A stretch of DNA of 64,000 bases. It comes from Phoronis australis (Eukaryota > Animalia > Phoronida). The notes below the pieces were generated by a model. The model was not told the DNA's origin, did no database searches, and saw only the letters and a list, made by a program, of their open reading frames with translations. The stretch is taken from assembly GCA_002633005.1 (NCBI GenBank), contig NMRA01000013.1, forward strand, positions 261,498 to 325,497, written 5' to 3'. Both the position numbers and the translations under genes were made by a program. Below, piece after piece: positions 1 to 32,839 of the stretch. Positions within the stretch are counted from its first letter, which is position 1; each line of letters begins with the position of its first letter.

Positions 1-226
1 TGGAATTGATATTTATTATTGCTGTCCTCGCCGCTGGGATTTATACCCCGCTGTCGCGTGCGGCCGCACCCGTGATTCCCGGTGCTCAGACCGGAGTCTG
101 TGACGTACTCCAGGACGGCACTTCTCTATGCCAGTGCGACACTAGCAGGACTAAAGTGCAGTGCAAAGACAAAAAACTAACTGCAGTGCCAGTTGCTGAA
201 AAGTTCCCAGCCTCCACCAAGACATT
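1..226 (+). CDS. aGPCR exon 1: signal peptide + LRR N-terminal cap
   Basis: (M)[20 protein letters not shown] hydrophobic leader, then C..CQC....VQC....LTAVP..FP..TKTL (LRRNT); donor TT|GTGAGT at 227. Confidence 0.88.
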
Positions 227-32800: not shown

Positions 32801-32839
32801 AACTCGATTGATACAAACGACATCAGCTTGAGGGTTTGA
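1..32839 (+). CDS. Adhesion GPCR (LRR-LRRCT-LU/three-finger-HormR-GAIN-7TM), ADGRG/GPR126-like 7TM; 23-exon gene model, ~1005 aa
   Basis: Hand-assembled exons: 1-226, 3991-4062, 4447-4518, 5666-5746, 6522-6593, 7682-7854, 8806-8885, 9206-9440, 9929-10103, 12253-12338, 13934-14144, 14409-14556, 14978-15073, 15583-15717, 16259-16393, 16791-16918, 17424-17541, 22591-22735, 24384-24474, 25143-25336, 25501-25698, 29094-29183, 32784-32839. All are AG/GT-bounded with matching phases and total 3018 nt if one missing 5' A is added. GPS motif and secretin-class 7TM motifs present. The last two exons are less certain. Confidence 0.9.
534..3830 (+). mobile_element. Older degenerate copy or copies of the same HINE family
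   Basis: Diverged core repeats at ~560-945 and ~2610-3770; decayed 5' end at 534 and decayed 3' end at 3785-3830 (CCCTAGAAGCATATCGTTTGCGGTGCAGTCGTG versus CCCTAGAAGGATACCGTATGCGGTGCAATTGTG). Confidence 0.6.
949..2034 (+). mobile_element. Non-autonomous Helentron/DINE-1-like (HINE) element, intact ends
   Basis: T-rich start; subterminal IR ATGCGCCCACA (954-964) and TGTGGGCGCAT (1999-2009); 5' partial IR; (GTCC)n microsatellite near 999-1035; about four ~140-160 bp core repeats containing CCTAGTGGC; 3' hairpin CAACGC-tct-GCGTTG (2012-2026) then CTTGTT. Confidence 0.75.
3991..4062 (+). CDS. aGPCR exon 2: LRR
   Basis: 72-nt phase 2-2 exon, [25 protein letters not shown]; ttcag acceptor, gtgagt donor. 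Confidence 0.92.
4447..4518 (+). CDS. aGPCR exon 3: LRR
   Basis: 72-nt exon, [25 protein letters not shown]; tttcag / gtacgc. Confidence 0.9.
5666..5746 (+). CDS. aGPCR exon 4: LRR
   Basis: 81-nt exon, [28 protein letters not shown]; tttcag / gtaagt. Confidence 0.88.
6522..6593 (+). CDS. aGPCR exon 5: LRR
   Basis: 72-nt exon, [25 protein letters not shown]; ttgcag / gtaaga. Confidence 0.9.
7175..7287. repeat. Minisatellite, 18-bp unit GTAGCCACCGTTAGCCAT x6
   Basis: Five perfect units, one single-mismatch unit and a partial unit. Confidence 0.95.
7682..7854 (+). CDS. aGPCR exon 6: LRR C-terminal cap
   Basis: [14 protein letters not shown]...C...L......FGDC is the LRRCT pattern; tttag / gtatta. 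Confidence 0.9.
8806..8885 (+). CDS. aGPCR exon 7: Ly6/uPAR (LU) domain, first part
   Basis: [27 protein letters not shown]; tttcag / gtatca. Confidence 0.85.
9206..9440 (+). CDS. aGPCR exon 8: LU domain, second part
   Basis: ASDDAC...KTCIPSSAC...SC...[12 protein letters not shown], ending in the diagnostic CCxxxxCN; gacag / gttagt. Confidence 0.88.
9545..9655 (-). mobile_element. tRNA-derived SINE fragment (second family)
   Basis: Minus strand has B-box-like GGTTCGAGCCC and ends in TAATAAAGCCGATAATT. Confidence 0.4.
9929..10103 (+). CDS. aGPCR exon 9: hormone-receptor (HormR) domain, first part
   Basis: HCESE...[19 protein letters not shown]...ANRIC; ttacag / gtaatt. Confidence 0.88.
10611..10764. 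mobile_element. ~150-bp MITE, TIR GGGTAGARTTCA (copy 1 of 4)
   Basis: CAGGGTAGAATTCAGTA ... TACTGAAATCTACCCAG; internal AAAATCACGTG.TCTCATTTAAAA shared with copies at 33847, 53347 and 58365. Confidence 0.75.
11366..11803. mobile_element. TTAA-flanked MITE with ~70-bp imperfect TIRs and an inner inverted-repeat unit (11431-11590)
   Basis: TTAA|GGTTATCTCGGACCTTAATAAACGACATCAACTCTAA versus the reverse complement of the right end TTAA|GGTTTTCTAGGACCTTGATAAACGATCTCAACTCTAA. Confidence 0.75.
12253..12338 (+). CDS. aGPCR exon 10: end of HormR domain
   Basis: [16 protein letters not shown] (W..PD...C motif); ttgcag / gtaagt. Confidence 0.88.
12860..13770 (+). pseudogene. Decayed 3' part of a non-LTR retrotransposon ORF2 (RNase H + C-terminal Cys/His motif)
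   Basis: FSDSQAAIK...[18 protein letters not shown] matches the RNase H pattern SDS..A / WV.AH.GI.GNE.AD; downstream CSCC....ETPQHL; broken by stops and frameshifts. Confidence 0.8.
13934..14144 (+). CDS. aGPCR exon 11: GAIN helical subdomain A
   Basis: ASELANLT...[13 protein letters not shown]...VEIFSNMMD; tttcag / gtgagt. Confidence 0.88.
14409..14556 (+). CDS. aGPCR exon 12: GAIN
   Basis: LLHQIEQFT...[11 protein letters not shown]; tttaag / gtaaga. Confidence 0.85.
14978..15073 (+). CDS. aGPCR exon 13: GAIN
   Basis: SIVLPRSLF...RIQF....DSLFK; tttcag / gtacat. Confidence 0.87.
15232..15275 (-). mobile_element. SINE 3'-end fragment
   Basis: AATTGCAGGCGGTCTGATACACGTTGTACC is the reverse complement of the SINE tail. 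Confidence 0.6.
15583..15717 (+). CDS. aGPCR exon 14: GAIN
   Basis: [26 protein letters not shown]; ttttag / gtaagt. Confidence 0.9.
16259..16393 (+). CDS. aGPCR exon 15: GPS motif and Stachel
   Basis: CVFWD....QWSTDGC.........[14 protein letters not shown]; ttccag / gtaagt. Confidence 0.95.
16791..16918 (+). CDS. aGPCR exon 16: TM1
   Basis: [23 protein letters not shown]; ttacag / gtaatt. Confidence 0.93.
17424..17541 (+). CDS. aGPCR exon 17: ICL1-TM2
   Basis: [19 protein letters not shown], similar to the ADGRG KLRRDYPSKIL motif; tttag / gtaagt. Confidence 0.93.
19765..19803. repeat. Perfect 19-bp-arm palindrome
   Basis: GACCTGTGAACAGGTGTTT-A-AAACACCTGTTCACAGGTC. Confidence 0.95.
20183..20362 (+). 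mobile_element. tRNA-derived SINE, 5'-truncated copy
   Basis: Aligns by eye with 36397-36610: GAGTCCCAC..CTAGCT.CTCAGCTCGGTT..AATAAA.CACAAAAAT.GTTCCA..GCAATGGGCCCAC..CAGACCGCCTGCA. Confidence 0.75.
20653..20984. repeat. Diverged tandem duplication with GAY-triplet-rich core
   Basis: Two units, each CTTGGCGAAATTAA...GATGATGACGAAGATGAC...GACGAAC.TAGA.GTCA...GAAATAGGCTAC. Confidence 0.75.
22591..22735 (+). CDS. aGPCR exon 18: TM3-TM4
   Basis: [28 protein letters not shown]...GWG; tttcag / gtaagt. Confidence 0.95.
23784..23882. repeat. Compound (CA)n/(CGCA)n microsatellite
   Basis: Seen directly in the sequence. Confidence 0.95.
24076..24314. mobile_element. MITE with TIR (C)ATGCGCGCACCCA
   Basis: TATGCGCGCACCCAG ... 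TGGGTGCGCGCATG with G-run and C-run subtermini. Confidence 0.6.
24384..24474 (+). CDS. aGPCR exon 19: TM4-ECL2
   Basis: [19 protein letters not shown]; tttag / gtaagt. Confidence 0.92.
25143..25336 (+). CDS. aGPCR exon 20: TM5-TM6
   Basis: CWL...[17 protein letters not shown]...[12 protein letters not shown]; ttccag / gttagt. Confidence 0.94.
25501..25698 (+). CDS. aGPCR exon 21: TM6-TM7, helix 8
   Basis: GLTWVFA...[19 protein letters not shown]...DVQHTW; tttcag / gtgagt. Confidence 0.94.
26425..26944 (+). mobile_element. TTAA-type non-autonomous DNA transposon, TIR AGAGGC(A/C)TGGAA (Kolobok-like), copy A
   Basis: TTAA|AGAGGCCTGGAACG ... TTCCATGCCTCT|TAAA; an inverted partial copy lies at 60155-60598. 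Confidence 0.75.
29094..29183 (+). CDS. aGPCR exon 22: cytoplasmic tail
   Basis: 90-nt phase 1-1 open exon [30 protein letters not shown]; ttccttcag acceptor and strong CTG|GTAAGT donor. No domain homology support. Confidence 0.7.
30002..31664 (+). mobile_element. Non-autonomous Kolobok-like DNA transposon with THAP remnant, copy 1 (last intron of the aGPCR)
   Basis: TTAA on both sides (29998-30001, 31665-31668); TIR AGGA.AATGCCA.CC / GGGTGGCATTCTCCT; frameshifted [13 protein letters not shown]...[14 protein letters not shown]...[11 protein letters not shown] at ~30176-30420. Confidence 0.85.
32784..32839 (+). CDS. aGPCR terminal coding exon ([18 protein letters not shown])
   Basis: Long polypyrimidine tract then CAG at 32781-32783; in phase with exon 22; TGA at 32837-32839. 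Confidence 0.65.

What the first reader, a model, noticed from the sequence alone, without database searches (positions are those of the whole stretch)
1..32839. Adhesion GPCR with an unusual LRR + three-finger (Ly6/uPAR) ectodomain on an ADGRG-type 7TM
Seen: one continuous spliced frame gives SP-LRRNT-4xLRR-LRRCT-LU-HormR-GAIN-7TM. Known: vertebrate ADGRA2/3 (GPR124/125) are LRR-LRRCT-Ig-HormR-GAIN; ADGRG6 (GPR126) is CUB-PTX-SEA-HormR-GAIN; LU domains occur mainly in GPI-anchored or secreted Ly6 proteins, toxins and, as a fold, in TGF-beta receptor ectodomains. Inference: this is an ADGRA-like layout with Ig replaced by LU, on a 7TM whose motifs ([33 protein letters not shown]) look ADGRG-like. 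I know of no characterised aGPCR with this combination.
Basis: partly seen in the sequence, partly recalled or inferred. Interest (0 to 1): 0.85.

Follow-up and report, generated by a model that had tools for sequence, protein, structure and literature searches.

The report
Invertebrate adhesion receptor with three-finger domain
A spliced, transcribed gene for a cell-surface adhesion receptor carrying leucine-rich repeats and a predicted three-finger (Ly6) domain; the same layout recurs in molluscs, worms and starfish and starfish examples are in print, so it is likely a member of an old but unstudied receptor family rather than a one-off novelty.

Summary
Twenty-three GT-AG exons give one open 1004-aa frame. 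RNA reads span the three junctions in question: 7854/8806 (8 reads), 8885/9206 (4) and 9440/9929 (10); no LU-skipping joint was listed. The 12-Cys module is an LU domain of LYPD1/LYPD6 type. GAIN has a canonical HL|T site, and the 7TM is closest to ADGRG2/4/6 among the structures listed.

The layout is not unique. Of 77 non-vertebrate relatives listed, 51 carry LRR plus LU; 0 of 43 vertebrate ones do. One relative, LyAp2 of starfish, is already published as an LU-bearing adhesion GPCR (PMC9410279) and aligns with the model end to end. LU-GPCRs are also reported for molluscs and arthropods (PMC13719153). No function is published in what I read.

What this work adds: members in annelids, a brachiopod, nemerteans and hemichordates; a tree consistent with one old lineage beside ADGRG2/4/6; and this gene's lack of the SEA-sized module found in its lophotrochozoan relatives. 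Verdict: new member of a known, uncharacterised kind.

The parts
1..226 (+). Exon 1 (cut by window start): signal peptide, LRRNT, start of LRR1
   Evidence: hydropathy aa 2-21; Pfam LRRNT E 0.001, under cut-off
3991..4062 (+). LRR exon, 72 nt, phase 2-2
   Evidence: LRR_8 E 0.013
4447..4518 (+). LRR exon, 72 nt, phase 2-2
   Evidence: its 3' end read joined to 5666
5666..5746 (+). LRR exon, 81 nt, phase 2-2
   Evidence: joint 5746/6522, 18 reads
6522..6593 (+). LRR exon, 72 nt, phase 2-2
   Evidence: joint 6593/7682, 16 reads
7682..7854 (+). LRRCT exon (4 Cys), ends in phase 1
   Evidence: joint 7854/8806, 8 reads; tblastn to relatives
8806..8885 (+). LU domain, first exon (Cys 1-4)
   Evidence: (joint 8885/9206, 4 reads)
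9206..9440 (+). LU domain, second exon (Cys 5-12, CCxxxxCN end), ends in phase 1
   Evidence: (joint 9440/9929, 10 reads)
9929..10103 (+). HormR domain, first exon
   Evidence: (HRM E 0.045)
12253..12338 (+). HormR domain, second exon
   Evidence: loose read ends behind 10103 match its start
13934..14144 (+). GAIN subdomain A exon
   Evidence: Pfam GPR128_GAIN_subdomA E 1.8e-4; one contig lies on 13934-14142
14409..14556 (+). GAIN exon
   Evidence: alignment to P0001
14978..15073 (+). GAIN exon
   Evidence: alignment to P0001
15583..15717 (+). GAIN subdomain B exon
16259..16393 (+). GPS exon: CxCxHL|T site and tethered-agonist core TNFALLI
   Evidence: Pfam GPS E 7e-17
16791..16918 (+). TM1 exon
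17424..17541 (+). ICL1-TM2 exon ([14 protein letters not shown])
22591..22735 (+). TM3-TM4 exon
   Evidence: 7tm_2 E 3e-12; best PDB hits ADGRG2, G6, G4
24384..24474 (+). TM4-ECL2 exon
25143..25336 (+). TM5-ICL3-TM6 exon
25501..25698 (+). TM6-TM7-helix 8 exon
29094..29183 (+). Predicted C-tail exon (in frame, optional; no RNA test)
32784..32839 (+). Predicted last coding exon, ends ...LRV-stop (no RNA test)
   Evidence: 12 of 51 relatives also end in [RK][VIL]

Best explanation
This is a spliced and transcribed adhesion GPCR with LRR, LU, HormR, GAIN and 7TM parts, likely the lophotrochozoan member of an old lineage beside vertebrate ADGRG2/4/6, and predicted to cut itself at its HL|T site and to signal through the tethered agonist behind it. 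Shown: gene structure, splicing across the LU exons, domain order, canonical GPS, kinship to LyAp2 and to mollusc and worm proteins. Predicted: the three-finger fold. Inferred from the family (PMC13197933): cleavage leaves the ectodomain bound to the 7TM part; LRR plus LU bind a protein on a neighbouring cell or in the matrix; binding, probably with mechanical load, frees the TNFALLI peptide, which activates the 7TM and a G protein, most likely Gs/cAMP as for ADGRG6. LRR-LU would thus fill the place that CUB-PTX holds in ADGRG6. Family assignment about 0.9; this activation route about 0.65; ligand not identified.
For: Splicing and strand. LU: 12 of 12 Cys align with relatives, same spacing except a longer finger 2 (21 residues against 16-18 in 22 relatives); family profile hits LYPD1 E 2.9e-10 and LYPD6 3.5e-7; AlphaFold2 model of the Owenia domain pLDDT 90 matches LYPD1 TM 0.76 and LYPD6B Z 10.1, rmsd 3.5, 81 aligned. 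GPS: CxCxH[LM]TxF in 50 of 51 LRR+LU relatives, TxFxxLM in 45 of those 50; the review gives H-L/I-S/T and TxFxxLM as consensus. 7TM: best PDB hits ADGRG6, G2, G4; all 43 rows I classed as vertebrate among the 120 listed are named or domain-typed G2/G4/G6-like. Tree: window within a 16-row lophotrochozoan group, 83/99. End-to-end match to LyAp2, 28.8%, E 2e-129.
Against: No cleavage, ligand or G-protein data for any member in what I read. The window's agonist core ends in I, not M. The window's whole LU was not folded; its second exon alone gave pLDDT 74.6 and LU-family top hits (GPIHBP1, LYPD1) with none at E <= 0.001. The tree has no ADGRA, ADGRD or ADGRL rows and is rooted on G2/4/6, so it cannot prove sisterhood; the lophotrochozoan branch is unstarred and the mixture-model search did not finish. 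ADGRG6 also couples to Gi with some ligands. 15 of 22 introns lack read support.
Confidence: 0.7

Rival explanations
1. The LU domain works in cis, like free Ly6 proteins: it modulates a neighbouring receptor (nicotinic receptor as LYPD1/Lynx2, or LRP6/Wnt as LYPD6), and the GPCR serves mainly as anchor or co-receptor, in the manner of GPR124 in Wnt7 signalling.
For: Nearest solved LU domains are LYPD1, LYPD6 and LYPD6B. PMC11595613 proposes a Lynx2-like role for LyAr2 (untested there). LYPD6 binds LRP6 and inhibits nicotinic receptors (PMC8494132). 30 of 51 relatives end in a class I PDZ-like motif.
Against: The cleavage site and agonist core are far better kept than the LU surface, which argues for G-protein signalling. 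An N-x-I motif (recalled as LYPD6's LRP6 contact) is in finger 2 of only 3 of 23 domains, at the base of the finger, and not in the window's. PMC9410279 itself calls the grouping with Lynx2 irrelevant. The window's predicted end (LRV) is not class I.
Confidence: 0.17
2. The LU is a structural spacer or lid that sets the shape of the ectodomain and basal activity; the LRR alone binds ligand.
For: LU surface residues are poorly kept (22-35% identity to the first row). Some relatives lack it: 9 of 77 have LRR without LU, with C-lectin or PAN-like hits in its place in some. The neighbouring SEA-sized module is absent here, so the middle of the ectodomain is modular.
Against: The 12-Cys pattern and the LRR-LU order are kept from molluscs to echinoderms. 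No LU-skipping joint was listed although the cassette is in frame (depth is low).
Confidence: 0.1
3. The gene is an ADGRA (GPR124/125) relative that swapped Ig for LU.
For: Same outer order LRR-x-HormR-GAIN (PMC9539791). Two relatives carry automatic ADGRA-like names (P0017, P0172).
Against: No Ig domain; canonical HLT rather than ADGRA3's SLS; no ETTV end; no vertebrate ADGRA among the 120 best of 1932 hits.
Confidence: 0.02
4. The LU exons are a separate gene or a chance intronic frame joined by the reader.
For: The LU cassette is flanked by phase-1 introns and could be skipped in frame; the 8885/9206 joint rests on 4 reads.
Against: Reads join LRRCT to LU, LU to LU and LU to HormR; relatives in several phyla have the same order in single proteins.
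Confidence: 0.01

Closest known systems
Starfish LU-bearing adhesion GPCRs: LyAp2 (XP_022094807.1), LyAr2 (XP_033635706.1), XP_033635539.1 (PMC9410279, PMC11595613)
   Same: LyAp2 and XP_033635539.1 were retrieved as P0076 and P0270. Both show LRR-LU-HormR-GPS-7TM with no SEA-like spacer; LyAp2 aligns with the model over aa 2-998. [quoted passage not shown]
   Different: Only 29-32% identical; LU-to-HormR linker 56-61 aa in LyAp2 and the Asterias amurensis protein, 17 aa here. The passages read mention the LU and the GPCR annotation; the 2024 text has no occurrence of LRR or GAIN.
Mollusc and arthropod LU-7TM proteins of PMC13719153 (2026)
   Same: GPCRs with an N-terminal LU; the Fig. 2 legend lists LRR and GPS among its symbols. 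Mollusc relatives found here have LRR-LU-HormR-GAIN-7TM.
   Different: The figure and supplements could not be seen, so whether LRR+LU+GPS is drawn on one protein is unconfirmed. Its Table 1 lists no 7TM type for annelids, brachiopods, nemerteans or hemichordates, where I find members. Nearly all full-length mollusc members examined have a 104-135 aa SEA-sized module that this gene lacks.
Vertebrate ADGRG6 (GPR126), ADGRG2, ADGRG4
   Same: Closest 7TM and GAIN among solved structures and among vertebrate hits; HormR-GAIN-7TM core; HL|T site.
   Different: N-terminal CUB/PTX and SEA_Gpr126 instead of LRR-LU; 0 of 43 vertebrate rows carry LRR or LU; invertebrate and vertebrate rows are split 100/100.
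ADGRA2/3 (GPR124/125)
   Same: LRR, then one small domain, then HormR and GAIN (PMC9539791).
   Different: Ig rather than LU; SLS site and ETTV end in ADGRA3; not among the nearest vertebrate hits.
LYPD1 (Lynx2), LYPD6, LYPD6B
   Same: Best sequence and structure matches of the LU module.
   Different: Those are small GPI-anchored single-domain proteins (PMC11595613, PMC8494132); here the domain lies inside a receptor ectodomain.

Membership tests
Adhesion GPCR | GAIN domain with GPS directly before the 7TM | tested here: met
   GPS E 7e-17, GAIN subdomain A E 1.8e-4; collinear with relatives
Adhesion GPCR | Secretin-like 7TM (7tm_2) | tested here: met
   7tm_2 on four exon frames, three over the cut-off; hydrophobic segments aa 680-930
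Adhesion GPCR | Cleavage tripeptide H-L/I-S/T and agonist core TxFxxLM | tested here: met
   HL|T present; core TNFALLI has I for M; consensus from PMC13197933
Adhesion GPCR | Actual self-cleavage and G-protein signalling | not testable with these tools
   needs expression and assays
Ly6/uPAR (LU) domain | Conserved Cys pattern ending in CCxxxxCN | tested here: met
   12 Cys aligned with relatives; 29.8 bits vs 9.5 best of 1000 shuffles; hhalign 93% for the second exon, 3% for the short first exon
Ly6/uPAR (LU) domain | Three-finger fold, tested on the closest relative (Owenia) | tested here: met
   pLDDT 90; Foldseek LYPD1 TM 0.76; top 39 VIA rows are three-finger or TGF-beta-receptor ectodomains
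Ly6/uPAR (LU) domain | Three-finger fold, tested on the window's own residues | tested here: inconclusive
   only the second exon (8 of 12 Cys) was folded: pLDDT 74.6; top four hits GPIHBP1 and LYPD1, E 0.035-0.089
Invertebrate LRR-LU adhesion GPCRs (LyAp2 type) | Order LRR-LU-HormR-GAIN-7TM in one chain and homology along its length | tested here: met
Invertebrate LRR-LU adhesion GPCRs, lophotrochozoan form | SEA-sized module between LU and HormR | tested here: not met
   17 aa here vs 104-384 aa in 42 of 42 lophotrochozoan or unnamed rows; no remnant in six frames (best E 0.27); reads join 9440 to 9929
ADGRG2/4/6 group | 7TM groups with G2/G4/G6 against the other families | tested here: inconclusive
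   best hits G2/G6/G4 ahead of L, D, E, F structures, but the trees hold no other family
ADGRG6 proper | CUB and pentraxin domains | tested here: not met
   no room or hit in the model; present in vertebrate rows
ADGRA2/3 | Ig domain between LRR and HormR | tested here: not met
   the only module there is the LU
ADGRA2/3 | C-terminal ETTV motif; atypical GPS (SLS in ADGRA3) | tested here: not met
   predicted end LRV (last exon untested by RNA), GPS HLT; features from PMC9539791
ADGRA2/3 | 7TM clade membership | not tested
   no ADGRA sequence was retrieved for a tree

The most novel reading that the evidence does not exclude
LRR-LU is the ancestral ectodomain of the ADGRG2/4/6 lineage: one receptor in the protostome-deuterostome ancestor, kept in lophotrochozoans and ambulacrarians, with LU lost in amphioxus and LRR-LU replaced by CUB-PTX in vertebrates. 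The LU-GPCRs that PMC13719153 leaves open as independent origins would then be one orthologous family, the first in which a three-finger domain serves as a GPCR's ligand-binding part.
Probability: 0.5. Interest if true: 0.55.

Novelty: new member of a known kind. Interest (0 to 1): 0.36.

Why it matters
As a single gene it is one more member of a family that databases label 'ADGRG6-like' and whose LU domain falls under Pfam's cut-offs in most members, so it is easily missed. The family is of moderate interest: it is wide among invertebrates, has no functional study in the papers read, and 'Ly6' does not occur in the held text of the 2026 adhesion-GPCR review. If it is the ancestral form of ADGRG2/4/6, it shows how a conserved GAIN-7TM engine changed its sensing domains, and it gives a test of whether a three-finger domain can act as a GPCR ligand sensor. 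This SEA-less, compact member would be a convenient one to express.

Tried and rejected
No genome is held for the window, so copy number and the true 5' end were not checked. The run search listed no indexed RNA holder; the runs came by species label. The first lay (1-18000) was swamped by a high-copy repeat in intron 1 and showed no exon joints among its 15 listed rows. The LU exon alone found no homologue in the word-indexed search (9 candidates) and only E 2-9 hits to LYPD6/LYPD1 in the PDB. The protein atlas gave no answer. A candidate exon at 27524-27572 breaks the frame and was dropped. The invertebrate SEA-sized spacer against the ADGRG6 SEA region scored 1.2% in hhalign: homology of the two is not shown, though Pfam SEA hits two spacers under cut-off. 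The mixture-model tree did not finish; the finished tree is LG+G4 on 32 rows chosen by me from about 120. The LU-profile search of 1.84 billion representatives gave 311 hits, 150 listed; of 143 new ones 8 had GPS and 7TM, 13 LRR+LU only, 122 LU only. I looked up names for 16 of the 143; none was named as an arthropod or cnidarian protein, which does not show absence. Earlier scan findings: none. Paper searches; none listed a functional study of this family, and subscription journals are not covered. No complex was predicted, since no partner is claimed.
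Full report
Gene model. Splice-site inspection gives 23 plus-strand exons between bases 3 and 32839, all introns GT-AG, with one open frame of 1004 aa. The window starts inside exon 1 with 'tg', so the start codon is probably cut by one base (inference). The order is signal peptide, LRRNT, four full LRRs on 72/72/81/72-nt phase-2 exons, LRRCT, a 12-Cys module (aa 240-324), HormR, GAIN with CxCxHL|T, 7TM and a short tail. The Cys module is on two exons (80 + 235 nt) flanked by phase-1 introns, the pattern of a shufflable cassette. 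Pfam by exon finds LRRNT, UPAR_LY6_2 and HRM under their cut-offs, and GAIN subdomain A, GPS and 7tm_2 over them.

RNA. Three raw-read RNA runs, listed by species label, were laid on 5600-10190. Depth is confined almost wholly to the exons and is low. Joints: 5746/6522 18 reads, 6593/7682 16, 7854/8806 8, 8885/9206 4, 9440/9929 10; loose ends give 4518/5666 and 10103/12253. Run X2 has no read on the first two LU joints. No joint skipping the LU was listed (threshold 3 reads). One search shows same-strand depth in exon-bearing bins up to 18000 but its joint table was taken up by a repeat.

The Cys module. A profile from 34 relatives, without the window, scores it 29.8 bits against 9.5 for the best of 1000 shuffles; all 12 Cys align with the family spacing, finger 2 being 21 residues against 16-18 in 22 relatives. 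A 22-sequence family profile hits LYPD1 (E 2.9e-10), LYPD6 (3.5e-7), SLURP1 and LYPD6B in the PDB. The Owenia domain folds at pLDDT 90 and matches LYPD1 (TM 0.76) and LYPD6B (Z 10.1, rmsd 3.5, 81 aligned). The window's second LU exon alone folds at pLDDT 74.6 with GPIHBP1 and LYPD1 on top but nothing at E <= 0.001; the whole window domain was not folded.

Relatives. A TM5-6 exon search found one protein, from the snail Gigantopelta, with LRR-LU-SEA-like-HormR-GAIN-7TM. Its GPS-7TM region found 1932 proteins, 120 listed. I classed 43 as vertebrate (G2, G4 or G6 type by name or domains) and 77 as invertebrate or unnamed. With profiles built from family members, 51 of the 77 have LRR and LU, 5 LU only, 9 LRR only, 12 neither; 0 of 43 vertebrate rows have either. 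Rows include isoforms and near-duplicates, and 34 of the 56 LU-positive rows seeded the profile. Named LRR+LU carriers are gastropods, bivalves, octopods, annelids (Owenia, Ridgeia; Lamellibrachia), Lingula, the nemerteans Lineus and Tubulanus, sea stars, sea urchins, a brittle star and one Ptychodera row; Glandiceps has LU without LRR; amphioxus rows have LRR without LU. The closest 7TM is Owenia's, 60%. On a 32-row LG+G4 tree the window lies in a 16-row lophotrochozoan group (83/99), and invertebrates are split from vertebrate G2/4/6 at 100/100; a 55-row quick tree agrees on the window's group. Neither tree has another adhesion-GPCR family, so sisterhood to G2/4/6 rests on search ranks.

What differs here. 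Of 52 rows with LRR, LU, HormR and GPS (counted from the table), 42 lophotrochozoan or unnamed rows have 104-384 aa between LU and HormR, 36 of them matching a spacer profile (20 were its seeds) that Pfam calls SEA under cut-off in two cases. Ten ambulacrarian rows have 36-927 aa without that match. The window has 17 aa, reads join LU to HormR directly and no remnant is seen in six frames. This gene likely lost the module, or kept an older state shared with sea stars. Whether the spacer is homologous to ADGRG6's SEA is not shown (hhalign 1.2%).

Literature. PMC9410279 (2022; passages and supplement search) notes that LyAp2 and LyAr2 are LU parts of adhesion GPCRs, nearer LYPD6; LyAp2 is XP_022094807.1, my P0076, which has the same order and aligns over aa 2-998 at 28.8%. 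PMC11595613 (2024; passages and supplement search) lists two LU-GPCRs in Asterias rubens, one being my P0270, finds LyAr2 mRNA in coelomocytes and coelomic epithelium, and speculates on a Lynx2-like role. PMC13719153 (2026; whole text; figures and supplements not seen) reports LU-7TM proteins in echinoderms, molluscs and arthropods, lists LRR and GPS in the Fig. 2 legend, and leaves independent origin or loss open; its table has no 7TM type for annelids, brachiopods, nemerteans or hemichordates. PMC13197933 (section V and passages) gives the cleavage and agonist consensus and ADGRG6's collagen IV/laminin-211 to Gs/cAMP signalling, and has no occurrence of 'Ly6' in the 300,000 of 412,554 characters held. 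PMC9539791 (passages) gives ADGRA3's LRR-Ig-HBD-GAIN, SLS and ETTV. PMC8584163 (passages) treats G2/4/6 as one group present in early chordates. PMC8494132 (passages) and PMC2246102 (passages) were read for LYPD6 partners and amphioxus domains.

Mechanism. Shown: anatomy, splicing, kinship. Predicted: fold. Inferred: self-cleavage at HL|T (site in 50 of 51 relatives, core TxFxxLM in 45 of 50; here TNFALLI), ligand capture by LRR-LU, release of the tethered agonist, G-protein signalling, most likely Gs. Rivals: LU as cis modulator of nicotinic or Wnt receptors (0.17), LU as spacer (0.1), ADGRA relative (0.02), artefact (0.01).

Verdict. Real, expressed, correctly read by the first stage, but a member of a widespread invertebrate family whose LU-GPCR nature is in print. 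New member of a known kind; interest 0.36. The remaining novelty is evolutionary (one old lineage beside ADGRG2/4/6, wider than published) and functional (no ligand or assay found).

Noticed in passing
window 52104-59195 (+): Lin28-like gene downstream: cold-shock domain on two exons (Pfam CSD E 5e-12 and 1.2e-5) and two CCHC knuckles (zf-CCHC 2e-10, Lin-28A-like knuckle 1.5e-4); its first exon was not located.
   Followed up: partly
window 29995-31668 and 61266-62910: Two inverted copies, 82-84% alike, of a 1.7-kb element; the first lies in the receptor's last intron and holds a THAP-domain frame at 30125-30367 (E 5e-8). A further THAP frame is at 35050-35289 on the minus strand (E 3e-5). Likely DNA-transposon derivatives.
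   Followed up: partly
window 600-2400: A repeat in intron 1 draws read depths of 350-2000 per bin, nearly all in one orientation, against about 1-3 in exon-bearing bins: a high-copy element transcribed from other loci.
   Followed up: no
window 6588-10084: Reads differ from the window at 14 exonic positions, mostly in run X3; 7 change an amino acid, 3 of them in the LU, none a Cys. Allelic variation is the likely cause; no DNA run was available to check.
   Followed up: partly
window 12856-13732: Broken frames in the intron after exon 10 look like an RNase H end of a non-LTR retroelement (recalled motif); Pfam did not confirm it.
   Followed up: partly
window 7174-7287: 18-bp minisatellite, 6.3 copies, 98% matches, in the intron before the LRRCT exon.
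   Followed up: no
proteins P0217, P0205, P0212, P0207, P0178, P0166, P0167, P0235, P0244: Several LRR+LU proteins with differing LRR numbers; the four looked up among them are Octopus vulgaris, which suggests an expansion of this family in octopods.
   Followed up: partly
proteins P0060, P0072, P0136, P0075: Echinoderm members carry 230-930 extra residues between LU and HormR; in the brittle-star protein these are C-lectin, SRCR, SUEL lectin and chitin-binding domains.
   Followed up: no
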